A stretch of 64,000 nt of DNA from Myxococcota bacterium (GCA_036788295.1 DAIQNR010000006.1:51523-115522), one strand, 5' to 3'. Shown: positions 36,271-53,064, counted from the first letter of the stretch. Program-made: numbers and translations. Notes: a model not told the origin generated them from the letters alone.

Positions 36271-36285
36271 GCGGACCTTCGTCGT

Positions 36286-37296
36286 TCACCAGCCCGACCG
36301 CCAGACGTGCTGGGTGAGGGCTGCCATGTATTGAGCGCGCTCGAACGCGGAGGGGTCGGGGCTGTTGACTTGGCTGAGCGAGCCCTTCATCTGCTCGACC
36401 GATTCGTACTCCCGCTCGGTGAGCCAGGCCGAGAGGTCGCTCGAGACCTTGGCTGCGTGGCCGGGGCCGTGGCGGAGCAAGGCCGAAGTCATCATGGTGA
36501 CATCGGCGCCGGCGAGCAGGAGCTTCACCACGTCGCTGGCTTGGTGCACCCCGCTCGTGGCCGCGAGGTCCACCGAGACCCGCCCCTTGAGCAGCGCGAT
36601 CCACCGCAGCGGCAGCCGCATCTCCTCCGCCGAGGACAGGGTGAGCCGCGGCTCGACCGCGAGGTGGTCGAGGTCGATGTCGGGCTGGAGGAACCGGTTG
36701 AACAGGACGAGACCGCTGGCCCCGTTCTCCGCGAGCTGAAGCGCGAAGTGCCCCGGGCTGCTGTAGAACGGCGAGAGCTTCACGGCGAGCGGCAGCTGGG
36801 TCTGGGCCCGGACCTGCCGCACGAGCGCGACGACGTCCCGCTCGACCTCTATGCCCGGCCGAGTGACATCGGCGGGAACGGTGTAGACGTTGAGCTCGAG
36901 CGCGTCGGCACCCGCTTCTTCCACCTTGCGGGCGTGAAGCACCCACCCGCCTTGGGTATGTCCGTTGAGGCTCGCGATGACCGGGATGGACAGGGCCGCT
37001 TTCGCCGCCGCGATCAGCTCGAGCTGCTCGTCGCTGCGGCGCTTCATCTGGTGCATGTCGGGGAAGTAGCCGCCGGCCGCCTCCCCGAAGGTCTCGGCGC
37101 CGATGCGCTGAGCCCGAAACAGCTCCGCCTCCTCATGCTCGATCTGTTCTTCGAAGATCGAAGGCAGCACCACCGCCGATAGGCCGGCGTCTTCGAGCCG
37201 ACGCAGGGTGTCCACGTTTCCGGTGAGCGGGCCGCAGCTCGCCACCAAGGGGCTTTTCAGGGGCAAGCCCAGCCACCGGGTCGATAGATCCATCAT
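36286..37296 (-). CDS. Dihydroorotate dehydrogenase-like (DHOD family, class 1-type) protein coupled to PFOR
   Basis: 337 aa from ATG 37296 (ATGA overlap with the PFOR stop). LKSPLVASCGPLTGNVDTL...ELNVYTVP...LAVKLSPF... TIM-barrel DHOD/DHPD family features. Confidence 0.7.
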   Translation of the reverse strand: MMDLSTRWLGLPLKSPLVASCGPLTGNVDTLRRLEDAGLSAVVLPSIFEEQIEHEEAELFRAQRIGAETFGEAAGGYFPDMHQMKRRSDEQLELIAAAKAALSIPVIASLNGHTQGGWVLHARKVEEAGADALELNVYTVPADVTRPGIEVERDVVALVRQVRAQTQLPLAVKLSPFYSSPGHFALQLAENGASGLVLFNRFLQPDIDLDHLAVEPRLTLSSAEEMRLPLRWIALLKGRVSVDLAATSGVHQASDVVKLLLAGADVTMMTSALLRHGPGHAAKVSSDLSAWLTEREYESVEQMKGSLSQVNSPDPSAFERAQYMAALTQHVWRSGW

Positions 37297-40200
37297 CCTT
37301 GTTCCTCGGTCACGGTGTGGCGCTCGAGCCCGGCGAGCTGCTCGTAGTAGCTCCACCGCTCGTCGATGTCCTTTTGGGCGAGCACGGCGAGCCTCGAGGC
37401 GCGCTCGGGGTCGGCGCGCTGAAGCATCGCGTACCGAGCCTCCTTTTCGGCGTAGGTCTTGAACGGCCGGCTCGGCTTTTTGCTGTCGAGCTGAAAGGGG
37501 TGGGCGTCGGTGTCCGAGTGCCGGGGGTCGAACCGGTACAGCGGCCAGTGCCCGACCGCCTCGGCCTCCTTCATGTGCGACATCGACGTGCTCATGTCGA
37601 TGCCGTGCGCGATGCAGGTGGCGTAGGCGATGACGAGCGAGACGCCGGGGTAGGATGCGGCCTCGCGCATGGCCTGAAGGGTCTGCTTCATGTTTGCGCC
37701 GAGCGCGATCTGGGCCACGTATACGTTGCCGTACCCCATCGCGATCATGCCGAGGTCCTTCTTGCCGATCGGCTTGCCGGCGGCGGCGAACTTGGCGACC
37801 GCGCCCCGGGGCGTGGCCTTCGAGGCCTGGCCGCCGGTGTTCGAATAGACCTCGGTGTCGAGCACCAGGATGTTCAGATCCTCCCCGGAGGTGAGCACGT
37901 GGTCGAGGCCGCCGAAGCCGATGTCATAGGCCCAGCCGTCGCCGCCCACGATCCAGACGCTCTTTGGGACCAGGTGATCGGCGAGCCCGCTCAGCCGCCT
38001 CGCCTCCGCCGATGGGTTCGTGCTGAGTTGGCGCTTCAGCTCGGCGACCGCCTCGCGGCGGCCGGCGATCGCCGGCTCGTCGAGGATCGGGGCCGGGGCA
38101 CGGAGCGCGGCCACGAGCGCGCCCGGGATGGCCAAAGACGGATCGGTGAGCAGGGCCTCCGCGTGCAGGCTCTGCTGCTTCAGCGCGAGCCGCATCCCGA
38201 GCCCGAATTCGGCGTTGTCCTCGAACAGGGAGTTCGACCACGCCGGGCCCCGGCCGGCGCTGTCCTGCGACCACGGGGTGGTGGGGAGGTTGCCGCCGAA
38301 GATCGACGAGCACCCGGTGGCGTTCGCGACGACGGCCCGATCCCCGAGGAGCTGGGTCATGAGCTTCAGGTACGGGGTCTCTCCGCAGCCGGCGCACGCC
38401 CCAGAGTACTCGAACAGGGGCTCGGCGAGCTGGCTGCCCTTGACCGTCTCGAGCCGGACTTTTGTCCGGTCGGCGGCGGGCTGGGCGAGGAAAGCCTCGA
38501 ACCGGGGACGCTCCCGCTCGATGTGCTCGTCCTTGGGAGACATGTCGATCGCCTTGTGCTTGGCCACCGACTTGCTCTTTGCCGGGCAGACGTCCACGCA
38601 AACCCCGCAGCCGGTGCAGTCGTCAGGGGCGACCTGAACCATGAACTTCAGGTCGGGGCCGATGAGTTCTTTGCCCCGGTAGGGCACGGCGCCGAGCGCG
38701 GTGACCTCGTCCGAGTTCGGGAAAGCTTTGGTCCGGATGGCGGCGTGGGGGCAAACGAGCGCGCAGAACCCACACTGGATGCAGATGTCCGAATCCCAGA
38801 TCGGGATCTCGAGCGCGATGCTCCGCTTCTCGTACTGGGCCGTCCCGGTAGGAAAGGCCCCGTCCACGGGCAGGGCGGACACCGGCAGCTTGTCACCGTC
38901 GCCGCGAATGATGGCGCCGGTGACCCGGGTCACGAAGTCCGGAGCGGACGGGGGCACCGCCGGGCGCAGGCGGATCTCGGAGGTGATCGAGAGCGGGACC
39001 TTCACCTCGTGGAGGTGGGCGAGCGCGGCGTCCACTGCGGTGACGTTGGCATCGAGCACCCTCTGGCCCGACTTCTTGTACGTCTTCTCGATCGACCTCT
39101 TGATGGCGGCGATCGCCTCGTCTCTCGGCAAAGCCCCAAAGAGGGCGAAGAAGCAGGTCTGCATCACCGTGTTGATCCGGCCGGCGAGCCCCGCCTCCTC
39201 GGCGACCGCGACCGCGTCGATGACGAACAGCCGCAGCTTCTTCTCGAGGATGGCCCGCTGCACTTCTTCGGGCAGCTTGTCCCAAACGATTTCGGCGCCG
39301 TGCGGGGAGTTCAACAGGAACGTGGCTCCTTCGGCGGCCAAAGACAGCACGTCCCGCTGCTCGAGAAAGTTGAACTGGTGGCAGGCCACGAACTGCGCCG
39401 ACTGCACGAGGTAGGTGGACTCGATGGGGCGGGGAGAGAAGCGCAGGTGGGATACCGTCACCGCGCCCGACTTCTTCGAGTCGTAGACGAAGTATCCCTG
39501 GGCGTGGAGGTCCGTCTCTTCGCCGATGATCTTCACCGAGTTCTTGTTCGCGCCCACCGTTCCGTCGGCCCCGAGTCCGTAGAAGACCGCGCGGACGACA
39601 TCCGAGGGCTCGATCTCGGGCGCCTTGTCGTAGTTGATGCTCAAGTGGGTGACGTCATCGACGATGCCCACCGTGAACCCATTCCGGGGCATGGTCTGGC
39701 GCAGCTCCGAGAACACGCCGGTCGCCATTCGCGGCGTGAACTCTTTCGAGGAGAGGCCGTAGCGGCCGCCCACGACCTCGGGCACCGTCTGCCGCAAACC
39801 CTGCCGACGGGCTTCGCTCAGCGCAGCCAGAACGTCGAGGTAGAGCGGCTCGCCGGGGGCGCCGGGCTCCTTCGTGCGGTCGAGCACCGCCACCTTGCGA
39901 ACCGATGGGGGCAGGGCGTCGAGCAGCCCCTTCATCGAGAACGGCCGAAACAGGCGCACGCCCACCACGCCGACCCGCTCGCCAACCTCCACCATGCGCC
40001 GGACCGCCTCGCGGGCGGCGCCGAGGCCCGAACCCATCATGACGATGACCTGATCCGGCTCGGGGTGTCCGTCGTAGTCGAACAGCCGCATGCTCCGGCC
40101 GGTCTGCTCCGACAGGCGCTTCATGGCCGACTCGATGATGCCCGGGGTTTGGAGGTAGTAGGGGTTGCACGCTTCCCTCGCCTGGAAGAACACGTCCGGG

Positions 40201-40862
40201 TTTTGGGCGGTGCCGCGCAGGCTCGGGTGGTCGGGGCTGAGCGACCGCGCTCGGTGCCGCTCGATGGCGGCCTCGTCGAGCATCGAGCGAATCACCGCGT
40301 CGGGGATGACCTCGACCCCGTTGACCTCGTGGGACGTCCGAAACCCATCGAAGATGTGGAGGAACGGCACCCGCGCGTGCAGGGTGGCGGCGTGGGCGAC
40401 CAGGGCCTGGTCGTGCGCTTCCTGCACCGACGACGAGAACAGCATCCCGAAGCCCGAGGCGCGGGTCGCCATGACGTCGGCGTGATCGCCGAAGATCGAC
40501 AGCGCGTGGGTCGCGAGCGCCCGGGCGGCCACATGGATGACCGCCGGGGTGAGCTCCCCGGCGATCTTGTACATGTTCGGGATCATGAGCAGGAGGCCCT
40601 GCGAGGACGTGAACGTCGTGGTCAGCGCCCCCGCGGACAGCGCGCCGTGCACCGTGCCCGCGGCCCCGCCTTCGCTCTGCATCTCCACCACCCGGGGAAC
40701 CTGGCCGAACACGTTCTTTCGTCGGGCCGAGGCCCAGTCGTCGGACAGCTCACCCATGGGAGAGGCGGGGGTGATGGGATAGATGGCCACGACCTCGCTC
40801 GCCGCGTAGGCGATGCGGGCCGCGGCCTCGTTGCCGTCCATGAGAACGTGCGTCTTTGGCAT
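37293..40862 (-). CDS. nifJ: Pyruvate:ferredoxin (flavodoxin) oxidoreductase, single-chain PFOR
   Basis: 1189 aa from ATG 40862: MPKTHVLMDGNEAAARIAYAASEVVAIYPITPASPMGE. Two 4Fe-4S ferredoxin motifs (CIQCGFCALVCPHAAI, CTGCGVCVDVCP). TPP-binding GGDGWAYDIG. Confidence 0.9.
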   Translation of the reverse strand: MPKTHVLMDGNEAAARIAYAASEVVAIYPITPASPMGELSDDWASARRKNVFGQVPRVVEMQSEGGAAGTVHGALSAGALTTTFTSSQGLLLMIPNMYKIAGELTPAVIHVAARALATHALSIFGDHADVMATRASGFGMLFSSSVQEAHDQALVAHAATLHARVPFLHIFDGFRTSHEVNGVEVIPDAVIRSMLDEAAIERHRARSLSPDHPSLRGTAQNPDVFFQAREACNPYYLQTPGIIESAMKRLSEQTGRSMRLFDYDGHPEPDQVIVMMGSGLGAAREAVRRMVEVGERVGVVGVRLFRPFSMKGLLDALPPSVRKVAVLDRTKEPGAPGEPLYLDVLAALSEARRQGLRQTVPEVVGGRYGLSSKEFTPRMATGVFSELRQTMPRNGFTVGIVDDVTHLSINYDKAPEIEPSDVVRAVFYGLGADGTVGANKNSVKIIGEETDLHAQGYFVYDSKKSGAVTVSHLRFSPRPIESTYLVQSAQFVACHQFNFLEQRDVLSLAAEGATFLLNSPHGAEIVWDKLPEEVQRAILEKKLRLFVIDAVAVAEEAGLAGRINTVMQTCFFALFGALPRDEAIAAIKRSIEKTYKKSGQRVLDANVTAVDAALAHLHEVKVPLSITSEIRLRPAVPPSAPDFVTRVTGAIIRGDGDKLPVSALPVDGAFPTGTAQYEKRSIALEIPIWDSDICIQCGFCALVCPHAAIRTKAFPNSDEVTALGAVPYRGKELIGPDLKFMVQVAPDDCTGCGVCVDVCPAKSKSVAKHKAIDMSPKDEHIERERPRFEAFLAQPAADRTKVRLETVKGSQLAEPLFEYSGACAGCGETPYLKLMTQLLGDRAVVANATGCSSIFGGNLPTTPWSQDSAGRGPAWSNSLFEDNAEFGLGMRLALKQQSLHAEALLTDPSLAIPGALVAALRAPAPILDEPAIAGRREAVAELKRQLSTNPSAEARRLSGLADHLVPKSVWIVGGDGWAYDIGFGGLDHVLTSGEDLNILVLDTEVYSNTGGQASKATPRGAVAKFAAAGKPIGKKDLGMIAMGYGNVYVAQIALGANMKQTLQAMREAASYPGVSLVIAYATCIAHGIDMSTSMSHMKEAEAVGHWPLYRFDPRHSDTDAHPFQLDSKKPSRPFKTYAEKEARYAMLQRADPERASRLAVLAQKDIDERWSYYEQLAGLERHTVTEEQG

Positions 40863-40992
40863 TGTCCGCCGACTGTGCAAACGGTGGTCCAATGCGATTT
40901 CACCGTTCTCGAGGCCCGAGGGCGCACCGAACGGTAACTCTTTGCGGGGTGACAACCGAGCGAGGGGACGAAGATGCGTAGATACCCTTATA

Positions 40993-41913
40993 TCAACGGG
41001 TGAAGGCTCGGTAGGGTCCGGTCCGCCAGGTCATGTCGGCCAGAGCCCGCTGGCCCGCGGCGGAGGGGTGAAAGCAGTCGAAGGGGGAGACCTCGTTCGC
41101 GGCGAAGCGGTACTGCTCGACCGCGTCGGAATACTGGTAGTAGTGGTTTGGGTCGCTCTGCTGGTATTCGGCCGCGAGCCGCTCGAGGATTCGGTTGAAG
41201 GCGAGGTTTCGGCTCCGGGTGAACTGCCGGTCGGCCTCGGAGTTGGTCGGGCTCAGCATCGTTCCGCAGGGATAGATGTTGAGCAGGGTGGTCGCCCAGA
41301 CGGCCCGGCAGTCGAGGAATCCAAACGCGCTGAGGTCGGCGCCGAGCTCGTAGAGCCGGTAGATGTCCACGAGACCGAGCAGGTAGACGGTGGCCCCGGC
41401 CGGCAGGCCCCGTCGAAGCTCGTCGAGCGCCGCCCGCACGTTCGCCTCGAACTCGGCGTCCGATGGGATCTGGGCGAAGTCGTTCTTGCAGACGTCGTTG
41501 TGCCCCATCAGGACCGGGACATAGCTCGCCTGCCGCGCCACCGCTCCCCGCGCCTGAGCGAGCAGGTTCGGGGAGCTCGCCCCGCTCACCCCCTGCATGT
41601 CGTTGACCCGGCCCCGGGAGCCGAAGTTGCGGGTGATGCGCTGGTTGTGGCTGTTGACGTCGGTGCGGCCGAGCAGCCACTCCCAAAAGCCCCGGTAGCC
41701 GTTCGTGTAGCTGGCCCAGGGGTTCGGGTTCGCGATCCGCAGCACGTTGAATTCTTCGGCGTTGACCGCGGCGGTGATGCTGTCGCCGATCGAGGACAGC
41801 CGCGTGGGCGCGAGCTGCGGGGGTTTGCTTTGCGCCATCGCGTCGGGGACGAAGAGCGATGCGGTGAGGGCGGCGCTCAGCGACGCCGCCCGAAGTCGGA
41901 CAATGTAGGCCAT
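40993..41913 (-). CDS. Secreted SGNH/GDSL-family hydrolase
   Basis: 306 aa from ATG 41913 (GGGAGG RBS). Signal peptide MAYIVRLRAASLSAALTASLFVPDAMAQ. GDSIT motif near the N-terminus. DxxH-like C-terminal CFHPSAAG. Confidence 0.7.
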   Translation of the reverse strand: MAYIVRLRAASLSAALTASLFVPDAMAQSKPPQLAPTRLSSIGDSITAAVNAEEFNVLRIANPNPWASYTNGYRGFWEWLLGRTDVNSHNQRITRNFGSRGRVNDMQGVSGASSPNLLAQARGAVARQASYVPVLMGHNDVCKNDFAQIPSDAEFEANVRAALDELRRGLPAGATVYLLGLVDIYRLYELGADLSAFGFLDCRAVWATTLLNIYPCGTMLSPTNSEADRQFTRSRNLAFNRILERLAAEYQQSDPNHYYQYSDAVEQYRFAANEVSPFDCFHPSAAGQRALADMTWRTGPYRAFTR

Positions 41914-42020: not shown

Positions 42021-42908
42021 TCACGCTCGCCGCGCCGCGCGCCACGCTCCGGGGGTGACGCCGTGGGTGCTCCGGAAGTGGCTCACGAGGTGCGAAGCGG
42101 AGCTGAGCCCCACTTCGGCCGCGATCGCGTCGAGGTCGAGGTCGGTTCCGCCGAGCAGGTGCTCGATCCGAAGCGAGAGGTGCCGGTCGCGCTCGGCCCG
42201 CAGGGAAGTCTGCGCGACCTCGAGACGGCGCTGCAGCGTGCGCAAAGACAGCCCGAGCGCCTTCGCGACCTCGGCCGTCCCATACACGCCCTGCTTTCGG
42301 AACACCTCCCGGACGCGACGGACGATCTCGGGCGTCTCCATCGCCGACGCCCGAAGAGCTTCGATCGGGGCGAACAGATCCGGCACCTCGCACCACGCGA
42401 ACGCGGGCGCTGCGTCGTCCTGAAAGCACTGAAAAGCGTAGGGAGGCCGAACGACATGCATCGCGCCGGCGACGATCACGCCGACGAACCCGCTGGGATG
42501 GAGGATGGCTTGCTTGAGGATGTTCGCACCCCACGCGTGGCGGCGCGCGACGAGATACGACAGCAGCCGTCCGAACGCGAGCACGTCGGCGGCCTCGAGG
42601 CCCCGGCCGTCTACGAAGGAGACGTGGCCGGCGAACCGTGGGTCGGCCCCGATCTCGAGGAACGGCATCATCTCGGTGATGTCCGCCTCGAGGGGCCGGC
42701 CCCACATGATCACCCCGAGCGCGCGGGTACCGTCCTGAAAGTACAAGAAGGTGCGTCCCACGAAGAAGCGCCGAGCCGGCGGCCCGAGGAAATCCCCCGA
42801 TGCGAAGGCCGGCTCGAACGGACCGAACGGACCCTCTCCACCCACCCGGGCGAGTCGCCTAACACGCCGACGTTCATGGCGCCAACCGGTAGCAAGACCG
42901 CGCCACAC
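42021..42908 (-). CDS. AraC/XylS-family transcriptional regulator
   Basis: C-terminal HTH: VYGTAEVAKALGLSLRTLQRRLEVAQTSLRAERDRHLSLRIEHLL...EVGLSSASHLVSHFRSTHGVTPGAWR. Confidence 0.75.
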   Translation of the reverse strand: MWRGLATGWRHERRRVRRLARVGGEGPFGPFEPAFASGDFLGPPARRFFVGRTFLYFQDGTRALGVIMWGRPLEADITEMMPFLEIGADPRFAGHVSFVDGRGLEAADVLAFGRLLSYLVARRHAWGANILKQAILHPSGFVGVIVAGAMHVVRPPYAFQCFQDDAAPAFAWCEVPDLFAPIEALRASAMETPEIVRRVREVFRKQGVYGTAEVAKALGLSLRTLQRRLEVAQTSLRAERDRHLSLRIEHLLGGTDLDLDAIAAEVGLSSASHLVSHFRSTHGVTPGAWRAARRA

Positions 42909-42934
42909 CCTCGACGACCGAGCGCCCAGCCGTC

Positions 42935-44407
42935 ATGGGTACACCGATGACATCGAGAGCGGGCGAGCGTGCGACGCCAGAGGCCGTGCTGCCCGGACGG
43001 GCTCCGAGCAACCTTCGGCTCAGCTGGGGTCTTTTGTGCGTGTTCTGGGTCGCGCCCGCCGCTTGCTCGAACGGCGGTGGCGATGCCGAGGACGGCGGTG
43101 GCAGGGAGCCGACAGAGACCGCTTTCCCCCAGTGCGTGGACAGCACGGAGGGCCTGTCGCGGGCGGCGCTGTTCCAGGCAACACTGCGGCCGCTCACCGA
43201 GGATGGGGTATTCGAGATCCCCCTATCTGCGACCGGCCGCGTTCGGCTGGTCCAGACGGTGGAGGGCGGGAAGCTGACTCGGCTGTCGGTGCGCAAGGCC
43301 TGGGGCTTTCTGATCTCGGACGGGTCGAGGTCGGTGGAGGCGGAGTCCGAGTTCAGCGACGAGAGGTTCACGGACACTTCGATGCGGGGGGAATACTTCC
43401 GTGACCTCGGCTTCTACTTTCCCGAGGTGGTGGCCCCGAGGAGCCAGCGGCTCCTGGAGACGCTGGAGGTGGAATTGGACGGCTCCGGGCGCATGCTTCG
43501 CCAGGTGGTCCGCGAGTTCTCCGAGGGACGGCTCAGCTTGGAGGTGGAGCAGACGGCGGTAGGCACCGACCAGATCCGCTCGGTGGCGCGCGCCGGCCGA
43601 AATGGGGCAACGGAGTTGATTTGGGATACCACTGGTTCTGCGAAGATGTTCAGTCCGGTCTGCGGTCCCCTCAGGAGTGGTACGCCGGATAGTCAGGTTC
43701 GCGACTGCACGGCGACCGAGTTGGCGCAGATTCAAGAGGAGCTGCTCGGGGGTTTGGAGCAGGGAAAGGCGTGTATCGAGAGGGTGGAAGAAGGCTCCAC
43801 CCCTGACCTCGGCGCCATCGACGGGCTCGTCGAACGGGTGAAGAAGAAGGAAGGCGCGATCAAGTGCTACACGGGAGGAGAGAGCGCTGGGTACATCAGC
43901 CGCAACTCCTCTGGTCCCGGCAGCGCTCTTGGGGCCACTCTCAACGTGAACGTGGGTATGCTCAGCCTATGCGACTCGAGCTTCCGGCGGTCCACTCTCT
44001 TTCATGAGATGTTGCACTTGGTACGGGGGCCTCACGACGAGGCGGACGAGCAAGTCTTCGAGCTTCCCGCGGGAGCCATCGGTCCGCTGACCGCTGCGCT
44101 CACCGATCCCATCCGCGCCTGCGAGGAGCTGTGCTTCGGAGATCCCGCCCGGGTCACCCGGTGCATGTGCGCCAAGTGCTTGGGTACCAAGGCCTGCGAT
44201 GACCGGTGCAGAGGTCTTCCCTCGTGCGTCGTGAGAAACGCAGCCGGAGTAGCGGTCAGCTCCGAGGCGGTCGGGTCGATGTGTTACGACCCTTCGGGAG
44301 TCAACTCGCCGAGCTGGCACGGTACCCATATGGCCTGCACCAGCGTTTGCTCCGGCGGCCGGACGTGCAAGAGCTACTCGGTGTCGTGCGACGACAACTG
44401 CAAGTAG
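42935..44407 (+). CDS. Secreted Cys-rich putative zinc metallopeptidase-like (lipo)protein (HEMLH)
   Basis: Signal LRLSWGLLCVFWVAPAACSNGG. Likely real start is GTG 42989 or ATG 42947 rather than 42935. Single HExxH at RRSTLFHEMLHLVRGPHDE. C-terminal about 110 aa contain about 18 Cys (CEELCFGD...CMCAKCLGTKACDDRCRGLPSC...CTSVCSGGRTCKSYSVSCDDNCK). Divergent from the AraC gene. Confidence 0.55.
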   Translation: MGTPMTSRAGERATPEAVLPGRAPSNLRLSWGLLCVFWVAPAACSNGGGDAEDGGGREPTETAFPQCVDSTEGLSRAALFQATLRPLTEDGVFEIPLSATGRVRLVQTVEGGKLTRLSVRKAWGFLISDGSRSVEAESEFSDERFTDTSMRGEYFRDLGFYFPEVVAPRSQRLLETLEVELDGSGRMLRQVVREFSEGRLSLEVEQTAVGTDQIRSVARAGRNGATELIWDTTGSAKMFSPVCGPLRSGTPDSQVRDCTATELAQIQEELLGGLEQGKACIERVEEGSTPDLGAIDGLVERVKKKEGAIKCYTGGESAGYISRNSSGPGSALGATLNVNVGMLSLCDSSFRRSTLFHEMLHLVRGPHDEADEQVFELPAGAIGPLTAALTDPIRACEELCFGDPARVTRCMCAKCLGTKACDDRCRGLPSCVVRNAAGVAVSSEAVGSMCYDPSGVNSPSWHGTHMACTSVCSGGRTCKSYSVSCDDNCK

Positions 44408-44409
44408 AT

Positions 44410-45984
44410 TCAGTCCATGCAGGCGGCCCGCCACTCGATCACCCGGGGCCACACCCCAACATGGCGGTTCAGCCAAGCGAGGTGGGGCCGAGCTTCGGCG
44501 CAGCGGGCCTCGAGGACATAGGACTCGGCTAGGGCCAGCCGTGCCTCGATGTCATCGGGGGACAGACGAAGCGCGCGCTCTTGGTCGGCCCACGTCGCGT
44601 TCGCATGGTGCGCCACCAAGAATGCCGCCATCCTCAGCCCGCTGAGGCCGACGGCGATGCACAGAACTGCAGCGACCGCGAGGCGAAGGGCCGCGGGGAA
44701 CGGTGGCCCGCCGCTCGAGCGCCCCGAAGCCACCCCCAGCGCCACCGCCGCCGCCGCGAGCCCGCTGGGCAGGCCCAGCACCGCGTCGAAGAGGGAGAGC
44801 GCGAGGAGGACGGCGAGGACAGCGAGCGCGGCGTGCTCCTTTCGTCGCCACAGAGTTCGCGCGAGCTGCCCGACCAGCGCAAGCGCCGCCGCCGTGCCGA
44901 CGAGCCCCTGCTCGACCAGCACCGCGAGGGCGTCGCTGGTCACGAGGCGATTGACCGGCATCAGCGACGAGCGGGATACGGTCGGGACGCCAGGGGGAGA
45001 AACCCGCAGGTAGACCGACGCCCAGGCTCCCGGACCGCTGCCGACCAGCGGTCGCTCTGTCAGGAGCGCCACGGACGCACGGGCCTGCACCACGCGCCCG
45101 GCACCGCTTCCATTCCGTCCGTCGAAGAGCGACCTCGCCGTGTCGGCGTAGGGCGTGGGGCTCCGCCACGACAGGCGGGTGGGCACGACCAGGGCGAGCG
45201 CAGCGAAGGCCCCCGCCAGCGCGAGCGGACGAAGCGTCCGGCCGCAAAGAGACAAGACCGCCACCCCCACGCCCGTCGCGAGCCATGCGGCGCGGCATCG
45301 GGTCACCACCACCGCCGCGACCATGACCGCGCCGAGCATCACGCCCGTGGCTCGCCGCCGGCGGTTCGGCCCGGTCGCCCACCCGAGGGCCACCGGTAGG
45401 CCGAGCGCGCAAACGTGGCCCACCGTGTTGCGCTGACCGAGCGTCGCACCGGGCGCCCGCCCATGCTTGGACCAGCTCGGGAAGGCTCCTTGCGCTTCGA
45501 GCAAGGCCAACACCGCGACGGCGCCGATGGCGACGAGGAGCGCTGCCTCCACGGCGGCCCGGCCGTCGTCGTCGGCCCATCTTCGGGCGCCGAGGAGCAG
45601 CGAAACGCCCACCCACACCAGCGCGGCCTGGCGCAGCACGAGGACTCCGGCCTCGCTCGTCAGCGAGGAAAGGGTCGCGGCGGCAGCGACGGCGAAGGCG
45701 GCCTGGCAAACCCCATCGAGCCGGGGCGGCGAGGGGCTGGCGAGCCACAGAACGGCGGCCATCGTAGCCAACCACAGCTCCTTTGGGAGGTGAAACCCCC
45801 CAAAGCCCGGATCGGACGACGAGAGCCACGGCAAGAGGCCGCCCACGGGAACGAGCATCCAGGCCAAGAGCGGCAACGAGGCAGCGCCTTGAAAACCCGG
45901 CCGAGCCATGAAGCGAAGCGCATAGGTCCATCGGCCCTGGTCCGCGACCACGGCGCGCGCCAACCGGTGGCAGAACCGCGCCAC
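44410..45984 (-). CDS. O-antigen ligase / Wzy_C-family polytopic membrane protein with C-terminal TPR-like tail
   Basis: 524 aa. About 10-12 hydrophobic helices and a large loop. C-terminal ...WADQERALRLSPDDIEARLALAESYVLEARCAEARPHLAWL. Located within a polysaccharide gene cluster. Confidence 0.55.
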   Translation of the reverse strand: MARFCHRLARAVVADQGRWTYALRFMARPGFQGAASLPLLAWMLVPVGGLLPWLSSSDPGFGGFHLPKELWLATMAAVLWLASPSPPRLDGVCQAAFAVAAAATLSSLTSEAGVLVLRQAALVWVGVSLLLGARRWADDDGRAAVEAALLVAIGAVAVLALLEAQGAFPSWSKHGRAPGATLGQRNTVGHVCALGLPVALGWATGPNRRRRATGVMLGAVMVAAVVVTRCRAAWLATGVGVAVLSLCGRTLRPLALAGAFAALALVVPTRLSWRSPTPYADTARSLFDGRNGSGAGRVVQARASVALLTERPLVGSGPGAWASVYLRVSPPGVPTVSRSSLMPVNRLVTSDALAVLVEQGLVGTAAALALVGQLARTLWRRKEHAALAVLAVLLALSLFDAVLGLPSGLAAAAVALGVASGRSSGGPPFPAALRLAVAAVLCIAVGLSGLRMAAFLVAHHANATWADQERALRLSPDDIEARLALAESYVLEARCAEARPHLAWLNRHVGVWPRVIEWRAACMD

Positions 45985-46195: not shown

Positions 46196-47209
46196 CTACC
46201 TACGAGTCGAGCTTGCTCGACCAGCGACGCGGGCCTCGAGCGCGGCGGGTCCGGCGCTGCCGTCCACCGCGTCGCCGTTCACGAAGGCCGTGGGCGATTC
46301 GGCGGCGCCGAGCCGGCGGGCGGCCTCGACCCGGCGGGCCACTTCGCCGAGCGGCGCGATTTGAGTGAGGCCCAGTTGGTTCGCGATTCGGTCCACTTCG
46401 CTCGGATCGGCGACCGGAGCGTCGAGCAGAGCGGTCAGCAACTTCGGTTTCAGTCCCTTTCCTTCGGCGGCGACCGCCCACTGCGCGATGCGAAGACCAA
46501 CCTCGTCCCCGTGGCGGGGGATGGGCCGAACCGTCCACCGAACCTTCGGCTGGGCTCGGGCCCAATCGGCGAGGGCGCGGGTCTGGGGCTCGGCGAGCGA
46601 GCCATAGATGACGACGACAGGGCCGTTCTCCGGCCCGGCCGCCTCGCCGGCGGTGAGCGGGATCGCGACCCGAGGGCGCGCTGGCGGAGGGTGGTCGATC
46701 CGAATGTCGGCCTGCTCCCGAAGGCTCCGGATGAAAGACAGCTCCGCTTCGAGGCGGGCCCGCTCCGAGAGGTACATCTCGACCCGAGCTCGGTCCTCTT
46801 CGCCAAGCCCTCGGTCCGCGAGGTAGGCTTCGACCTCGGCCCGGTCCGCCCGCCTCGGCGGCGCCTTTCTTCCCAGCAGCGCCTCGGCCGTGGTCCCGGT
46901 CTCGGCGGCGGCGCGGCGAAGGAGGCGCTCGTCGATTCGCCGCTCGAGCTCCTGCCGCTCGAGGATGTGCAGGTCCACCTGCCGCCGGAAGACCTCCATC
47001 GCGATCTCGGCGTGGACCTCGGACCGAAGGATCGGCGCTCCGTCCACCACGGCGAGCGCTGGATCTTCCACAGCCTTCCCGCACCCGAAGGAGAACACGA
47101 GCACCGCAGGCGACCAGGCGAGAGCCGGACCCATCGAGCAGAGCCGGGAGACGAGGCGAAGCACCGCCCGGACTGTTGCGGCCTTTGCGGGCCGCGGTCG
47201 ACCGGTCAT
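46196..47209 (-). CDS. DsbA-like thioredoxin-fold lipoprotein lacking the CxxC active site
   Basis: 337 aa from ATG 47209 (MTGRPRPAK...VLVFSFGCG lipobox). N-terminal coiled-coil/SurA-like region, then a DsbA-like fold in which the expected C-P-x-C position reads VVVIYGSLAEPQ, with no cysteines. Confidence 0.5.
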   Translation of the reverse strand: MTGRPRPAKAATVRAVLRLVSRLCSMGPALAWSPAVLVFSFGCGKAVEDPALAVVDGAPILRSEVHAEIAMEVFRRQVDLHILERQELERRIDERLLRRAAAETGTTAEALLGRKAPPRRADRAEVEAYLADRGLGEEDRARVEMYLSERARLEAELSFIRSLREQADIRIDHPPPARPRVAIPLTAGEAAGPENGPVVVIYGSLAEPQTRALADWARAQPKVRWTVRPIPRHGDEVGLRIAQWAVAAEGKGLKPKLLTALLDAPVADPSEVDRIANQLGLTQIAPLGEVARRVEAARRLGAAESPTAFVNGDAVDGSAGPAALEARVAGRASSTRR

Positions 47210-47222: not shown

Positions 47223-48845
47223 CTACGAGGTCGTCTCGATCGGCCGCGGTGCGCACGTTCGGGCGCCGTGGGCCTCGAGGAGCGCCGCCGCTTCGTGGTG
47301 CCCATGCCGCTCGGCGTCGTCTCGCGGCGTGCCGCCCCAGCGATCGACGGGGTCCACCTCGACCCCGCGCTCGAGCAAGAACTCGATGACTTCGAGGTGC
47401 CCCTCCGCAGCGGCGAGATGCATGGCGGTTCGGCGGTCGTAGTCGGCGAGATGCAGGCAGTTGGCGCGGGCGCTGAGCCGCTTCAGCGCGGATACATCCC
47501 CCTTGCTCGCGGCCCACAGCACGGGACCCACCCGGTCCGCGCGCTCCTCTCCAAATGCGATCCGCGGGTCGTCCTTCTCCGTGAGTCCGGTGAGGTTGTC
47601 GTAGTTGTGGAAGTTGTACCGGCTGACGAGGCCCCGAGCCATCGCGAGGCCTCGAACCGAGTTCCCGAAGCTGTCGAGGCGGGGGGACCAAGTGACCATG
47701 CCCATCACGTTCGGCACGACGACCATGATCGCCCCGGCTACGCCCGACTTCGCCGGGAGCCCGACGGTGAACGCGAACTCCCCCGAGAAATCGTACATCC
47801 CGCAGCTGTACATCAGGGACATGCAGTTGCGGACGGTCTGCGGCGAAAACACCGTCTCCCCGGTGAGCGGGTTGACCCCTCCGTTGGCCAAGGTGGCGGC
47901 GAGCACCGCCATCTTCTTGGTCGTGACGTCGATCGAGCAGCACATGAAGTAGAACTCGAGGGTCTGGTGCAGATCGGTGCCCGGAGGGAACGCCTTGTTC
48001 TCCTGCATGAAATAGCCGAGCGCGAAGTTGCGGTCAGCGGTCTGGCGCTCGGACAGGTACACTGAATTGTTGAATCCGACCTTCGCGCCACACGCTCGGC
48101 GCCACTGCGCGAGCACGTAGTCGAACCGGTCGGACATGTCTTCGCCCGGGCGAAGCAGCGAGCAGCACATGATGGCGCCGGCGTTGATCATCGGGTTGTG
48201 CGGTTTGCCGTCGGCGTTCAACGCGAGCTCGTTGAAGCCGCGACCGCTCGGCTCGCGCCCGACGTGCTCATGCACCTTGGCCTCTCCGTGCTCCTCGAGC
48301 GCCAGGCAGTAGTTGATCGGCTTGCAGGTGGACTGGACGCAGAAGTCCAGGTCGTGGTCGCCGAGGTCGATGCGCTGGCCGTCGATCGTGCACACCGAGG
48401 CCGCCCAGTGCTCCGGATCGACCCGAGACAGCTGGGGAATGTAGTTGGCGACTGCGCCCCCGTCTTCGTCCCGGCACTGCTCGAACAGGCCGGTGATGCT
48501 CGCGCGAAAGCGCCCGAACTCGGGGATGACCATTTCTCCTGAGATTGCACGCTCGACCGTGCTGATGCCAGGCTGAATGACCTGGCAGAACGCGTTGTAG
48601 TCCATGCCCGCTTCGGTGTGGTCGCGGAGGCGAGCGAGGACTGGGCGCAGCCGGGGGTCGGTCGCGACGTCGAGCCCCGACGCCTCGAGCGCTTCGGTGA
48701 GCTCGGCGCGGCTCACGAGTTTCTGCGAGCCGGCAAGCGAGGCAAACAACCGGCGCTCCCGGAGGACCGCCGGCTGGGCCAGCTCCTCCGGGGCCAGGCT
48801 GACCGGCGACGCATCCGCGGTCGCCGTCGAGTGGTCTCGATGCAT
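47223..48845 (-). CDS. glsA: Kidney-type (GLS-like) glutaminase with N-terminal EF-hand-like domain and C-terminal ankyrin repeats
   Basis: 540 aa from ATG 48845 (AAGGGGAG RBS). VANYIPQLSRVDPEHWAASVCTIDGQRIDLGD...CVQSTCKPINYCLALEEHG...HEHVGREPSG..FNEL.LN.DGKPHNPMINAGAI and C-terminal DVSALKRLSARANCLHLADYDRRTAMHLAAAEGHLEVIEFLLERGVEVDPVDRWGGTPRDDAERHGHHEA are colinear with human GLS/KGA including its ankyrin tail. Confidence 0.85.
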   Translation of the reverse strand: MHRDHSTATADASPVSLAPEELAQPAVLRERRLFASLAGSQKLVSRAELTEALEASGLDVATDPRLRPVLARLRDHTEAGMDYNAFCQVIQPGISTVERAISGEMVIPEFGRFRASITGLFEQCRDEDGGAVANYIPQLSRVDPEHWAASVCTIDGQRIDLGDHDLDFCVQSTCKPINYCLALEEHGEAKVHEHVGREPSGRGFNELALNADGKPHNPMINAGAIMCCSLLRPGEDMSDRFDYVLAQWRRACGAKVGFNNSVYLSERQTADRNFALGYFMQENKAFPPGTDLHQTLEFYFMCCSIDVTTKKMAVLAATLANGGVNPLTGETVFSPQTVRNCMSLMYSCGMYDFSGEFAFTVGLPAKSGVAGAIMVVVPNVMGMVTWSPRLDSFGNSVRGLAMARGLVSRYNFHNYDNLTGLTEKDDPRIAFGEERADRVGPVLWAASKGDVSALKRLSARANCLHLADYDRRTAMHLAAAEGHLEVIEFLLERGVEVDPVDRWGGTPRDDAERHGHHEAAALLEAHGARTCAPRPIETTS

Positions 48846-49025
48846 GAGTTCTCCCCTTGGAGGCTCGGATGAAAGGGGGACGGCCTCCAACCCGACAGAA
48901 TCGCCAAGCGGGCCCGCTGCGCAAGCCGCATTCCGCGACAATTGACCACGGAGCGCTGATCTTCGCACTCACGCCGCCCGACCGCCGCCGGCGGGCGCGG
49001 GTTTCTGCTCGGTCACCACTACGTG

Positions 49026-50890: not shown

Positions 50891-51083
50891 GGTCAGCGGG
50901 AGGCGGTCTCTTCGAGCCGGCTCCAGAAACGAGCCGTGAGTCGCGACCACGCGTGGGCCTCGGCCACCTCTCGCCCCGAGGCCGCCTGGCTATCGGGCGT
51001 GTCGCCACGGAGGCCCTCGAGGAGCCGAGCGGCGAAGCACGCGTCGGTCTCGGCCCGCCGGTAGTGAACGCCGTCCTCGAGCG
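50891..51083. repeat. 193-bp direct repeat, copy 2 (the native 3' end of the GT4 gene)
   Basis: See copy 1. Offset is 1865 bp. The two copies flank the FAS1 gene. Confidence 0.9.
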
Positions 51084-52068: not shown

Positions 52069-52152
52069 GCGCGTCGGGTCACGTCGCTTCTCGGCCGCCG
52101 TCGAGACGCGAATCGCCCCGTCGGGTCGGCGCCGTGCTAGACGGTCGGGCCC

Positions 52153-53064
52153 GTGATCCCCCTCGTCGGGCATTTCGTTTGGATCGGGCCCCGGCTCGGC
52201 TTCGAGCACGTCCTCGCCGTCCGGTCGGCGGCTGCCCGGGGGGGGCTGGACCGGCTGGTGCTGCACCACGCCGACGCGCTCGACGCCGGGCCCGAGCTCG
52301 AGGCCATCCTCGCCGTCGAGACGCTCGAGCTTCGACGATTCGACCCCGAGACCCTCTTGCGAAAGCCCCTGATTGGGCTCTACCTCCGACTCGAGTCGGC
52401 TGCGGCTCGCGCCGACCTGGTCCGCGTCGCGATCTTGGCCGAGGAGGGCGGGGTGTACCTCGACGCGGACACGCTGACCGTGGCGAGTCTCGCCCCTCTG
52501 TGCGCCGGCGGCGGCGCGTTTGCGGGAGAGGAGCACATCATCTTTCCGGCCTCCGTCCGGGACAGCCGAAGCCCCGTCCGCTGGTCCCGAGCAATCGCGC
52601 AGGTTGGGCTGCGGACCGCGTGCCGCCTCGCGCCGGGGGGCTGGCGGGCGTTCCGGAGGGTCGAAGGCTGGTATCCTCGCGCGATGAACAACGCGGTCCT
52701 TGCTGGGGAGCCGGGACATCCCGTCCTCGACGCGCTGCTCGAGGCGATGGCCGGCCGGGCGGAGAAGTCGCGGCTGTCTCCCTACGCGCTCGGGCCGCAC
52801 CTCCTACAGTCTGGCGCCGCGCGCCTCGAGTCGATGGGGCTCGTCGTTCATCCTCCGCCTGTGTTCTATCCACTGGGCCCCCGGGTCGCGGAGCACTGGT
52901 TTCGGCCGGGCACGGCGCGCCACGTCGACCGGATGCTGGCCCCCGAGACCAGGGTGATTCATTGGTATGCGTCCAACCGGCTCACGGGGCCCATGAGCGC
53001 CGCGTGGGTTCGGGAGCGGGCCGAAGACCTCGCGTTCTGTCGGCTCGCGCGGCCTTTCGTCTGA
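52153..53064 (+). CDS. GT32-like glycosyltransferase (Gly_transf_sug, DXD motif)
   Basis: GTG start. VGHFVWIGPRLGF N-terminal motif and GGVYLDADT DXD motif, characteristic of Och1/capsular-polysaccharide-type GT32 enzymes. Confidence 0.6.
   Translation: MIPLVGHFVWIGPRLGFEHVLAVRSAAARGGLDRLVLHHADALDAGPELEAILAVETLELRRFDPETLLRKPLIGLYLRLESAAARADLVRVAILAEEGGVYLDADTLTVASLAPLCAGGGAFAGEEHIIFPASVRDSRSPVRWSRAIAQVGLRTACRLAPGGWRAFRRVEGWYPRAMNNAVLAGEPGHPVLDALLEAMAGRAEKSRLSPYALGPHLLQSGAARLESMGLVVHPPPVFYPLGPRVAEHWFRPGTARHVDRMLAPETRVIHWYASNRLTGPMSAAWVRERAEDLAFCRLARPFV

What the first reader, a model, noticed from the sequence alone, without database searches (positions are those of the whole stretch)
42021..44407. 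AraC regulator divergent from a secreted HEMLH protein with an 18-Cys C-terminal module
A single HExxH in a secreted or lipid-anchored protein, plus a densely disulfide-bonded tail, resembles secreted zincin toxins or effectors rather than housekeeping proteases. The divergent AraC gene suggests inducible expression. No family assignment was possible by eye.
Basis: partly seen in the sequence, partly recalled or inferred. Interest (0 to 1): 0.55.

Follow-up and report, generated by a model that had tools for sequence, protein, structure and literature searches.

The report
Myxobacterial disulfide-rich lipoprotein zinc protease family

Summary
Both ORFs are real. The AraC-type regulator is 42021-42845/42908(-). 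The divergent 490-aa protein is 42935-44407(+) and has one HEMLH. The cysteine count was off: 14 Cys lie in the last 95 residues and 20 in the mature protein.

The protein matches no Pfam, NCBIfam or PDB sequence entry. An exhaustive HMMER search still found a family of at least 167 clusters. H357, E358, H361, H367, D391 and about 16 Cys are (near-)invariant. The motif is HExxHxxxGxH(D).

The closest relatives are eukaryotic Wss1/WLM proteases (profile E 2e-4, motif region only) and, by fold, the archaeal minimal zincin selecase. The Cys-rich "tail" is predicted as part of the same compact domain, not a separate knottin/EGF module. Most members carry lipoprotein signals.

No homolog has an AraC neighbour. 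In 9 of 12 informative loci the neighbour is an orthologous Wzy_C/TPR membrane protein, in varying orientations.

Best reading: a new family of extracytoplasmic, lipid-anchored zincins tied to cell-envelope glycoconjugate machinery. The substrate is unknown and the toxin idea is unsupported.

The parts
42935..44407 (+). Gene for the 490-aa HEMLH protein, a lipoprotein-type zincin of an unnamed family. The start is ATG 42935 as called; GTG 42986 (V18) is a possible alternative start.
   Evidence: ORF. The identical protein is called on 4 public contigs. GC at codon position 3 is 0.80. The family has at least 167 representative clusters.
42935..43066 (+). Signal peptide ending in a lipobox-like APAAC; C44 is codon 43064-43066. 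A Gly-rich tether follows (SNGGGDAEDGGG).
   Evidence: Hydrophobic core at aa 29-43. C44 aligns with a Cys in 72% of 54 homologs. Most of those homologs have classical lipoboxes such as AGC, TGC or SGC. Position -3 is Pro, which is atypical.
43112..43654 (+). N-terminal beta-rich domain (aa ~60-240). It is a meander of about 10 strands with a degenerate DxDGDG-type loop (ELDGSGRM, aa 179-186).
   Evidence: AF2 model, strands 91-235 at pLDDT 75-93. Only weak fold matches were found, to OspA, fHbp, BF3112 and Rhs-like beta sheets (E >= 4e-3, TM <= 0.41). The usual Cys partner of C67 is Arg102 in this protein.
43655..44404 (+). Catalytic plus Cys-rich domain (aa 241-490), predicted as one compact unit.
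   Evidence: AF2 domain model has pLDDT 89 and pTM 0.87. The top PDB fold hits are all zincins: selecase (prob 0.97-0.99, TM 0.50-0.52 over about 105 columns), deuterolysin, the HtpX domain and jannalysin.
44003..44035 (+). Zinc-site motif HEMLHLVRGPH (H357, E358, H361, G365, H367), followed by D368.
   Evidence: H357, E358, H361 and H367 are present in 54/54 sequences. The motif lies on helix 348-364 with H367 just after the Gly turn. It aligns with the Wss1/WLM motif HELTHNLFGPHD.
44105..44107 (+). Invariant D391 in the DPxYACE motif (DPIRACEE in this protein). It is either a second-shell residue or an alternative, aspzincin-like third zinc ligand.
   Evidence: Present in 54/54 sequences. 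Weak aspzincin signals exist: the deuterolysin fold hit, AsaP1 at E 0.39, and one member matching Aspzincin_M35 at 0.0016.
44120..44401 (+). Cys-rich C-terminal segment with 14 Cys (aa 396-489). Spacing is C-3-C-9-C-1-C-2-C-5-C-3-C-5-C-18-C-17-C-3-C-5-C-6-C-3-C.
   Evidence: Positions. Each of the 14 is conserved in 78-100% of 54 homologs. pLDDT is 84-97 and the segment packs with the catalytic core.
42021..42845 (-). AraC/XylS-type transcription regulator (274 aa as called; the ORF extends to 42908). The HTH is at about 42036-42266. The N-terminal ~185 aa match no known family.
   Evidence: Pfam HTH_18 at E 4e-13 and HTH_AraC at 5.5e-7. PDB matches are AdpA and Ada HTH domains only. The N-terminal part has no Pfam hit. 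It is not found next to any homolog of the protease.
40993..41913 (-). Secreted GDSL lipase/acylhydrolase (306 aa), 107 bp downstream of the AraC gene on the same strand. It is at least as likely an AraC target as the protease gene.
   Evidence: Pfam Lipase_GDSL_2 at E 6e-15. Gene call. The N-terminus MAYIVRLRAASLSAALTASLFVPDAMAQ looks like a signal peptide.
44410..45984 (-). Wzy_C (O-antigen ligase/polymerase-like) polytopic membrane protein with a short TPR-like C-terminus. It is convergent on the protease gene, with the two stop codons 2 bp apart. This is the conserved neighbour of the family.
   Evidence: Pfam Wzy_C at E 1.7e-7, 31.5 bits, just under the 31.7-bit cut-off. Orthologs (33-41% identity, alignment A6) lie next to the protease homolog in L005, L007, L008, L010, L011, L012, L017 and L018.

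Best explanation
ORF 42935-44407 encodes an exported, probably lipid-anchored zinc metallohydrolase, most likely an endopeptidase. It belongs to an uncharacterised family that appears confined to Myxococcota-like high-GC soil bacteria.

Proposed mechanism:
- The protein is exported by Sec and acylated at C44.
- It hangs from a membrane on a Gly-rich tether.
- A ~180-aa beta domain is followed by a minimal zincin catalytic core.
- H357, H361 and most likely H367 hold the zinc, and E358 is the general base. This is the HExxHxxxGxH arrangement of Wss1/WLM proteases.
- D391 is invariant and acts either as a second-shell residue or as an alternative ligand.
- The lower half of the catalytic domain is a Cys-rich sub-domain. 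Sixteen to twenty Cys, so up to 10 disulfides, presumably rigidify the enzyme outside the cytoplasm.

Functional context:
- Its functional partner is the adjacent Wzy_C/TPR membrane protein, so it acts in cell-envelope or surface glycoconjugate biology rather than as an AraC-controlled toxin.
- The AraC gene is a lineage-specific neighbour. It may regulate this gene and/or the GDSL lipase in this organism only.

Shown here: the family, the motif conservation, the predicted fold, the signal types and the gene neighbourhood.

Inferred: zinc binding, peptidase activity, disulfides, lipidation and functional coupling to Wzy_C. The substrate is unknown.
For: Family:
- Exhaustive HMMER search gave 167 representatives at E <= 1e-3 and 69 at E <= 1e-10.
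- Invariant residues are H357, E358, H361, H367, D391 and 9 Cys, with 7 more Cys at >= 90%.

Fold:
- The full model has pLDDT 80.9 and the domain model pLDDT 89 with pTM 0.87. HExxH lies on a helix that follows a 3-stranded sheet and two helices.
- The top 8 Foldseek PDB hits of the domain model are all zincins, with selecase first (prob 0.97-0.99, TM 0.5).

Sequence:
- The family profile against PDB gives Wss1 WLM domains at E 1.9e-4 and 7e-3, selecase at 0.02 and astacin at 0.5.
- hhalign against 9 Pfam-annotated WLM proteins gives 85.7% probability, E 5.5e-6, over the motif.

Export:
- Classical lipoboxes occur in most full-length members and Tat signals in a distant clade.
- C44 aligns with the family's lipobox Cys in 72% of sequences.
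- The Tat clade sits beside a MauE/thioredoxin-type gene, which fits a need for disulfide formation.

Neighbourhood:
- The Wzy_C/TPR ortholog is adjacent in 9 of 12 informative loci. These include Myxococcaceae and Polyangiaceae MAGs and a 10.75-Mb NCBI chromosome.
- The arrangement is convergent, divergent or co-directional, including 4-bp and 20-bp overlaps.
- No AraC gene is present in any of these loci.
Against: - No model coordinates were available, so the convergence of H357, H361 and H367 on one site was not measured.
- Foldseek E-values are weak (0.08-0.15). Similarity to WLM covers only 25-47 residues around the motif.
- Pfam WLM scores 12-15 bits against a 26-bit cut-off.
- The lipobox has Pro at -3, and an SPase I site (A-P-A) is also possible.
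- Three informative loci (L006, L013/L014, L016) lack the Wzy_C neighbour.
- Adjacency among related genomes could partly reflect inherited synteny. No other flanking gene is shared, which argues against that.
- Nothing here identifies a substrate or demonstrates catalysis.
- This copy has lost one Cys of a conserved N-domain pair (R102), which leaves C67 without its usual partner.
Confidence: 0.65

Rival explanations
1. One reading: an AraC-induced secreted zincin toxin or effector used against prey or competitors. A myxobacterial variant is a lipoprotein toxin passed on by outer-membrane exchange, like SitA. In that variant the small downstream gene seen in close homologs would serve as immunity.
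For: - The protein is an exported zincin with a divergent AraC gene.
- The closest homologs (L004, L005, L008, L009) have a ~190-aa membrane-anchored gene overlapping the stop codon, a layout typical of toxin-immunity pairs.
- Small Wss1-like zincins are known as toxin domains (Tox-MPTase1-5; PMC3482391).
- The N-domain gives weak Rhs-like fold hits.
Against: - AraC is absent from every other locus.
- The window gene has no downstream small gene, because Wzy_C converges 2 bp after its stop.
- The small gene is a paralog of the protease's own N-terminus (hhalign 94.9%, E 4e-8). It is not a recognisable immunity family, and PADLOC and Pfam give nothing.
- There are no Tox-MPTase or RHS Pfam hits.
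- The whole protein, not just an N-terminal carrier, is conserved as a single copy beside a conserved envelope gene. That is not the pattern of polymorphic toxins.
Confidence: 0.12
2. The conserved pair is an enzyme-substrate pair. The Wzy_C/TPR protein would be a PglL/TfpO-type O-oligosaccharyltransferase dedicated to glycosylating this lipoprotein, for example on its Gly/Ser-rich tether. This can be true in addition to the protein being a protease.
For: - Wzy_C-family O-OTases lie next to their target glycoprotein in 21 of 31 cases (PMC3643930).
- Adjacency here is seen in 9 of 12 informative loci, sometimes with overlapping genes.
- Low-complexity linkers follow the lipobox Cys in many members.
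Against: - The PglL-specific motifs were not tested.
- Wzy_C alone cannot separate ligase, polymerase and O-OTase.
- No sequon is known for these organisms.
- The window's Wzy_C score is borderline (31.5 against 31.7 bits), and NCBIfam gives no assignment.
Confidence: 0.15
3. The catalytic site is aspzincin-like rather than WLM-like. D391 in DPxY(R)AC would be the third zinc ligand, as in the GTxDxxYG motif of M35 peptidases, and H367 would have another role.
For: - D391 is invariant in 54/54 sequences and is followed at +3 by Tyr in 27 of 54.
- It lies 30 residues after H361, a spacing like deuterolysin's (spacing recalled from memory, not checked with a tool here).
- Deuterolysin is the longest fold match, at 144 columns.
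- AsaP1 gives E 0.39, and one member hits Aspzincin_M35 at 0.0016.
Against: - H367 is equally invariant and sits at the exact WLM/metzincin position after a Gly turn.
- The best sequence and fold matches are WLM and selecase.
- The Tyr is not conserved and is Arg in the window protein.
- Only 1 of 54 members touches the M35 model.
Confidence: 0.2
4. The HExxH domain is not a peptidase. It would be a metal-dependent enzyme acting on a glycan, lipid-linked or peptidoglycan substrate handled together with the Wzy_C protein, or a catalytically silent binding protein.
For: - The link to Wzy_C points at glycoconjugates.
- HExxH scaffolds have been recruited to other chemistry; for example, the ChlB HExxH oxygenase domain appears at rank 11 of the fold hits.
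- No substrate evidence exists.
Against: - The complete set H-E-H-H is invariant, as in active zincins.
- All the best matches are peptidases.
- Loss of catalysis normally shows up as motif decay, and only 6 of 150 members lack HExxH, several of which are fragments.
Confidence: 0.1

Closest known systems
WLM domain metalloproteases (Wss1; Pfam PF08325; PDB 5JIG, 5XBN)
   Same: - The zinc-site signature is nearly identical: HEMLHLVRGPHD against HELTHNLFGPHD, both HExxHxxxGxHD, preceded by a beta strand.
- Both have a small catalytic core.
- It is the best sequence-profile match (E 1.9e-4; hhalign 85.7%).
   Different: - Similarity is limited to 25-47 residues, and the Pfam score is below the cut-off.
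- WLM proteins are eukaryotic intracellular DNA-protein-crosslink/SUMO-pathway proteases without disulfides (PMC4559962).
- This family is bacterial and exported, usually as a lipoprotein. It has an N-terminal beta domain and a C-terminal sub-domain of about 14 Cys.
Minigluzincins (selecase MJ1213, jannalysin; PDB 4QHF-4QHJ, 4JIX)
   Same: - They are the best fold matches. The whole ~108-residue selecase aligns (TM 0.50-0.52, 19-22% identity, prob 0.97-0.99).
- The family profile hits selecase at E 0.02.
- Both have a minimal zincin scaffold.
   Different: - Minigluzincins are ~110-residue cytosolic archaeal proteins with no extra domains and no Cys-rich part.
- Here the core is embedded in a 250-residue disulfide-rich domain.
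Aspzincins (M35: deuterolysin 1EB6, AsaP1 2X3A)
   Same: - They are secreted zincins.
- An invariant Asp lies about 30 residues after HExxH in a D-x-x-Y-like context.
- Deuterolysin is disulfide-bonded and gives the longest fold alignment (144 columns).
   Different: - There is no GTxDxxYG motif.
- An invariant His sits at +6, which aspzincins lack.
- Scores are weak (prob 0.54; E 0.39).
Metzincins (astacin and others)
   Same: - The three His have the same spacing, HExxHxxxxxH, with the active-site helix ending at a Gly.
- Both are extracellular and disulfide-bonded.
   Different: - The Gly is shifted by one position (xxxG rather than xxG).
- No invariant Met-turn methionine is present in the alignment.
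- The astacin match is only E 0.14-0.5.
Tox-MPTase1-5 polymorphic-toxin zincins (Zhang et al. 2012, PMC3482391)
   Same: - They are small bacterial zincins described as distantly Wss1-like and are exported.
   Different: - Those are C-terminal cassettes on RHS or other polymorphic toxins with immunity genes.
- Here no Pfam Tox-MPTase match was found, there are no RHS repeats, and the family is a conserved single-copy lipoprotein.

Membership tests
Zincin (clan MA-type) metallopeptidase fold | HExxH located on an alpha-helix that follows a mixed beta-sheet and a backing helix | tested here: met
   DSSP of the AF2 models shows helices 260-284 and 290-303, strands 308-312, 319-322 and 335-339, and helix 348-364 carrying H357-E358-x-x-H361.
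Zincin (clan MA-type) metallopeptidase fold | Significant structural similarity to solved zincins | tested here: inconclusive
Zincin (clan MA-type) metallopeptidase fold | Third zinc ligand downstream of HExxH | tested here: inconclusive
   There are two invariant candidates, H367 (WLM/metzincin position) and D391 (aspzincin-like). No coordinates were available to decide between them.
Zincin (clan MA-type) metallopeptidase fold | Zinc binding and peptide-bond hydrolysis | not testable with these tools
   This needs biochemistry.
WLM domain (Pfam PF08325) | Score above the Pfam gathering threshold (26 bits) | tested here: not met
   The window protein scores 12.3 bits and the family consensus 14.7 bits. 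Only 1 of 54 members reaches E < 0.01.
WLM domain (Pfam PF08325) | HExxHxxxGxHD zinc signature | tested here: met
   HEMLHLVRGPHD aligns with HELTHNVHGEHD and HELTHNLFGPHD.
WLM domain (Pfam PF08325) | Homology extending over the whole ~190-residue domain | tested here: not met
   hhalign aligns only 25 columns. hmmsearch aligns 47.
Metzincins | HExxHxxGxxH/D consensus and a conserved Met-turn | tested here: not met
   The motif is HExxHxxxGxH. No Met is among the invariant or near-invariant columns.
Aspzincins (M35) | HExxH plus GTxDxxYG | tested here: not met
   Only D391-P-x-[Y/R] is present. Tyr occurs in 27 of 54 sequences and is Arg in the window protein. The Aspzincin_M35 model is hit by 1 of 54 members at 0.0016.
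Bacterial lipoproteins | Signal peptide ending in a lipobox [LVI][ASTVI][GAS]C | tested here: inconclusive
   A hydrophobic region is present and C44 aligns with the lipobox Cys of 72% of homologs. The window sequence is A-P-A-A-C, with Pro at -3. No dedicated predictor was available.
AraC/XylS regulators (neighbour gene) | C-terminal double HTH (HTH_18/HTH_AraC) above threshold | tested here: met
   HTH_18 scores 49.9 bits against 33.6, and HTH_AraC 30.0 against 26.6.
AraC/XylS regulators (neighbour gene) | Regulates the divergent gene, with the pairing conserved among homologs | tested here: not met
   No AraC homolog or HTH_18 gene lies beside any of the other loci. Regulation in this genome itself is not testable here.
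Polymorphic toxin / Tox-MPTase / RHS systems | RHS or other carrier repeats, a variable C-terminal toxin cassette, and an adjacent immunity gene | tested here: not met
   No RHS or Tox-MPTase Pfam hits. PADLOC is negative. There is no downstream gene in the window. The downstream gene of close homologs is an N-domain paralog.
Knottin/EGF/granulin-type Cys modules | An autonomous small disulfide domain recognisable by profile or fold | tested here: not met
   No such Pfam hit at E <= 1. One member gives a weak Stig1 hit at 0.0093. The segment is predicted to be continuous with the catalytic domain (pTM 0.87). It has no PDB fold match of its own.
Wzy_C (O-antigen ligase/polymerase/O-OTase) family (neighbour gene) | Pfam PF04932 above the gathering threshold | tested here: inconclusive
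   The window copy scores 31.5 against 31.7 bits. Its orthologs in L005 (49.4 bits), L010 (44.2), L017 and L018 pass. Which subtype it is (ligase, polymerase or O-OTase) was not tested.

The most novel reading that the evidence does not exclude
The lipoprotein zincin and the Wzy_C/TPR membrane protein would form a previously unrecognised two-gene envelope module of Myxococcota. In it, proteolysis and glycan transfer are coupled. Two forms are possible. One is a dedicated O-glycosylation system for the protease. The other is a 'cleave-and-attach' system that links surface proteins to a lipid-linked glycan, functionally analogous to PorU/A-LPS in the type IX secretion system or to exosortase/PEP-CTERM. 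It would be built from a WLM-like protease otherwise known only from eukaryotic DNA-protein-crosslink repair.
Probability: 0.1. Interest if true: 0.75.

Novelty: new variant of a known kind. Interest (0 to 1): 0.45.

Why it matters
- It defines a sizeable protein family (at least 167 clusters at 50% identity) that current Pfam and NCBIfam models miss. It would merit its own peptidase family.
- The WLM/Wss1 zinc signature is known from eukaryotic nuclear proteases. Here it appears in an exported, disulfide-stapled bacterial lipoprotein, which bears on the origin of WLM/minigluzincin-type minimal zincins.
- The conserved pairing with an O-antigen-ligase-like protein gives a concrete, testable lead. 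It may point to an unknown step of myxobacterial cell-surface biogenesis, a field where motility, development and predation depend on surface glycoconjugates.
- It also corrects the initial lead. The AraC gene is incidental, so effort should go to the Wzy_C partner.

Tried and rejected
Searches that gave nothing on the window protein:
- Pfam, NCBIfam, PADLOC and PDB-sequence searches with the single protein.

Homolog searches that underperformed:
- The word-indexed homolog search found only one relative. It found nothing more with the 54-sequence profile. The exhaustive HMMER search was needed.
- The genome scan with A2 failed for lack of a conserved stretch. With A3 the pattern was narrow and gave 3 loci.
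- The metagenome scan gave one 1.6-kb locus.

Structure libraries:
- Model coordinates are not exposed, so no zinc-site geometry or disulfide pairing could be measured.

Regulatory signals:
- The promoter/terminator scan and repeat search of the AraC-protease intergenic region showed nothing above chance.

Literature:
- Searches for the SRA runs, for myxobacterial protease/O-antigen-ligase pairs, and for bacterial secreted WLM proteins found nothing specific.

Ideas rejected:
- A third conserved gene upstream in the Polyangiaceae MAG locus (L007) and the 10.75-Mb chromosome locus (L017): no similarity.
- A paralog elsewhere in the window: none.
- An RHS-type carrier for the N-domain: rejected, because it is only about 180 aa and the matches are weak.

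Unresolved:
- The organism could not be named. Its own genome is not among the species representatives scanned. Relatives are Myxococcota MAGs and all loci are 67-73% GC.
Full report
OBSERVATION

The interval holds two real, divergently oriented genes.

- ORF 42021-42908(-), which gene callers on identical public contigs start at 42845 (274 aa), carries a C-terminal AraC-type double helix-turn-helix. Pfam HTH_18 gives E 4e-13 and 49.9 bits against a cut-off of 33.6.
- Its N-terminal ~185 residues match nothing.
- ORF 42935-44407(+) encodes 490 aa with a single HExxH, HEMLH at residues 357-361.
- Codon-position GC of 0.62/0.54/0.80 supports this frame. The overlapping antisense ORFs are the usual high-GC artefacts.
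- The N-terminus has a hydrophobic core (aa 29-43) ending in A-P-A-A-C44, followed by a Gly-rich stretch.

The cysteine statement needs correction. There are 22 Cys: one in the signal peptide, C44, and 20 in the mature chain. Fourteen of those lie in residues 396-489, and '18' only results if counting starts at C258.

A FAMILY, NOT AN ORPHAN

The single sequence hits no Pfam, NCBIfam, PADLOC or PDB entry. The word-indexed search found only one relative, at 33% identity.

An exhaustive HMMER search of 1.84 billion representatives with the two-sequence profile found 167 proteins at E <= 1e-3 and 69 at E <= 1e-10. Most are 420-490 aa.

In a 54-sequence alignment:
- H357, E358, H361, H367 and D391 are invariant.
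- Nine Cys are invariant and seven more are >= 90% conserved.
- All 14 C-terminal Cys of the window protein are conserved in 78-100% of members.
- The family signature is LFHExxHxxxGxH(D) ... DPxYACExLCF ... TxCxCAxCLxTxxCDxRC.

HExxH is present in 144 of 150 representatives. None of the 54 members reaches any Pfam family, apart from isolated sub-threshold hits to Aspzincin_M35, WLM and Stig1.

FOLD AND NEAREST RELATIVES

AlphaFold2 with the family alignment gives a confident model (pLDDT 80.9, pTM 0.77). It shows:
- a disordered signal and tether;
- a beta-meander domain at about residues 90-235;
- a second domain in which two long helices and a three-stranded sheet precede helix 348-364. That helix carries HExxH and ends at G365, so H367 sits just after the turn.

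Residues 241-490 modelled alone give pLDDT 89 and pTM 0.87, so the Cys-rich part is predicted to be one unit with the catalytic core.

Foldseek of this domain against the PDB ranks six selecase chains first (prob 0.82-0.99, TM 0.46-0.52 on the target, whole 108-residue protein aligned, 19-22% identity). These are followed by deuterolysin, an HtpX domain and, lower, jannalysin. E-values are weak, at 0.076 or more.

The family profile searched against PDB sequences gives:
- S. pombe Wss1 WLM domain at E 1.9e-4;
- S. cerevisiae Wss1 at 7e-3;
- selecase at 0.02;
- astacin at 0.5;
- Spartan at 0.8.

The aligned motif, stlfHEllHlvrgsHd against STLIHELTHNVHGEHD, is essentially the WLM signature. A profile-profile comparison with nine Pfam-annotated WLM proteins gives 85.7% probability and E 5.5e-6, but over only 25 columns. 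Pfam's WLM model scores 12-15 bits against a 26-bit cut-off.

So the protein works like a WLM/minigluzincin-type minimal zincin but is not a member of Pfam WLM. It also fails the metzincin definition (Gly shifted, no invariant Met) and the aspzincin definition (no GTxDxxYG).

The invariant D391, with Tyr at +3 in half the members, keeps an aspzincin-like third ligand possible. I could not settle H367 against D391 because coordinates are not exposed.

EXPORT

- Most full-length members begin with textbook lipoprotein signals (...IAGC, ...FTGC, ...LSGC) followed by Gly/Ser-rich linkers.
- A distant clade instead has twin-arginine signals.
- The window's C44 aligns with the lipobox Cys in 72% of the alignment. 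Its own box, with Pro at -3, is atypical.
- In the Tat clade the downstream gene is a MauE plus AhpC/thioredoxin fusion and the upstream gene carries a PEP-CTERM motif. This is consistent with an extracytoplasmic, disulfide-dependent protein.
- Lipidation and disulfides are inferences.

GENE NEIGHBOURHOOD

The AraC pairing is not conserved. tblastn with the window's AraC and GDSL proteins finds them only on the window's own contigs, and annotated neighbours of homologs include no HTH_18 gene.

What recurs is the gene on the other side. The window's 44410-45984(-) product is a Wzy_C (O-antigen ligase/polymerase-like) polytopic protein with a short TPR-like C-terminus. Orthologs at 33-41% identity (alignment A6) lie directly beside the protease homolog in:
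- L005 (Myxococcaceae MAG);
- L007 (Polyangiaceae MAG);
- L008, L010, L011 and L012 (metagenomes);
- L017 (a 10.75-Mb NCBI chromosome);
- L018 (NCBI MAG).

Counting the window, that is 9 of 12 informative loci. The arrangements are convergent, divergent and co-directional, including 4- and 20-bp overlaps. No other flanking gene is shared, so simple synteny is an unlikely explanation.

Three loci lack the neighbour: L006, the Tat-clade L013/L014, and L016.

The AraC gene is followed 107 bp downstream, on its own strand, by a secreted GDSL lipase (40993-41913). That lipase is at least as plausible a target. No promoter-like or palindromic element stands out in the AraC-protease intergenic region.

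MECHANISM PROPOSED

- Export by Sec, acylation at C44, and tethering to a membrane through a flexible linker.
- A beta domain of unknown role.
- A minimal zincin site with H357, H361 and H367 on zinc and E358 as base.
- A multiply disulfide-bonded lower sub-domain that gives stability outside the cytoplasm.
- Function tied to the Wzy_C/TPR protein, that is, to assembly or decoration of a surface glycoconjugate.

Shown here: family membership, motif invariance, predicted fold class, signal types and neighbourhood. Inferred: metal binding, peptidase chemistry, localisation, disulfides and functional coupling. Unknown: the substrate.

RIVALS

Toxin/effector reading. It gains a little from the ~190-aa membrane-anchored gene that overlaps the stop codon in the four closest homologs. 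It also gains from the known existence of small Wss1-like toxin zincins (PMC3482391). Against it:
- That small gene is a paralog of the protease's own N-terminus (hhalign 94.9%, E 4e-8).
- It is absent from the window.
- The family behaves like a vertically inherited single-copy envelope gene.

Enzyme-substrate reading. The Wzy_C protein could be a dedicated O-oligosaccharyltransferase for this lipoprotein. The precedent is 21 of 31 PglL homologs lying adjacent to their targets (PMC3643930). This is compatible with the main reading and was not tested.

Non-peptidase chemistry cannot be excluded.

NOVELTY AND VERDICT

This is a new family-level variant of a known kind, the zincin metallopeptidases. 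Its unusual features are:
- a WLM-type zinc signature in an exported bacterial lipoprotein;
- an integrated 14-Cys sub-domain;
- a conserved partnership with an O-antigen-ligase-like protein.

Interest is moderate.

Noticed in passing
L004:969-1550, L009:1485-2045, L005:~7227-7805, L008:1667-2005: In the four closest homologs a ~190-aa gene with an N-terminal membrane anchor overlaps the protease stop codon. By hhalign it is a paralog of the protease's own N-terminus (signal, Cys, and the 'LSxxGCxRxR' start of the beta domain; 94.9%, E 4e-8). It is absent from the window, and the window protein has also lost one Cys of that motif (R102).
   Followed up: partly
L013:2115-5778 and L014:846-4509: A distant clade of the family has Tat signals instead of lipoboxes. 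It is flanked upstream by a PEP-CTERM-motif protein and downstream by a MauE plus AhpC/thioredoxin fusion, which may be a private disulfide-forming system.
   Followed up: partly
window 47223-48848 (-): A glutaminase with an N-terminal EF-hand_14 domain and C-terminal ankyrin repeats (Glutaminase E 7e-111). From memory, not checked here, this matches the domain layout of animal kidney-type glutaminase, which would be unusual for a bacterium.
   Followed up: no
window 6030-10121 (+) and 10064-14689 (+): Two very large tandem ORFs (1363 and 1541 aa) each give a marginal hit to DUF4953 'Met-zincin' around residue 765-850. They may be further uncharacterised zincins in the same window.
   Followed up: no
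window 46196-47209 (-): A 337-aa protein between the Wzy_C gene and the glutaminase has no Pfam match and no homolog in the other loci. By eye its C-terminal half looked DsbA/thioredoxin-like, but nothing supported that.
   Followed up: partly
window 32187-37356 and 37293-40955: An XusB-like protein plus a TonB-dependent receptor is followed by a DHODH-family gene and a ~1200-aa pyruvate:ferredoxin oxidoreductase. The PFOR suggests a capacity for low-oxygen metabolism. The 1212-aa ORF antisense to PFOR is a high-GC artefact.
   Followed up: no
window 50893-52800 (-), 57263-58657 (+): GT4 and GT2 glycosyltransferases lie within 6-13 kb downstream of the Wzy_C gene. L010 likewise has GalK, GH2, GT1 and UDP-galactopyranose mutase genes near the pair. 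The pair may sit at the edge of polysaccharide loci.
   Followed up: no
window (whole) and L001-L003: The window's proteins (protease and AraC) are singletons at 90% identity among about 15 billion proteins. They are seen only in one NCBI contig of 125 kb and three SRA runs (SRR3311151, SRR3311153, SRR3311156).
   Followed up: partly
L005:635-4933: A 1432-aa protein full of MopE-type 'putative metal-binding' Cys motifs (E 1e-37) lies upstream of the protease homolog in the Myxococcaceae MAG. It is another example of the Cys-rich exported proteins common in these genomes.
   Followed up: no
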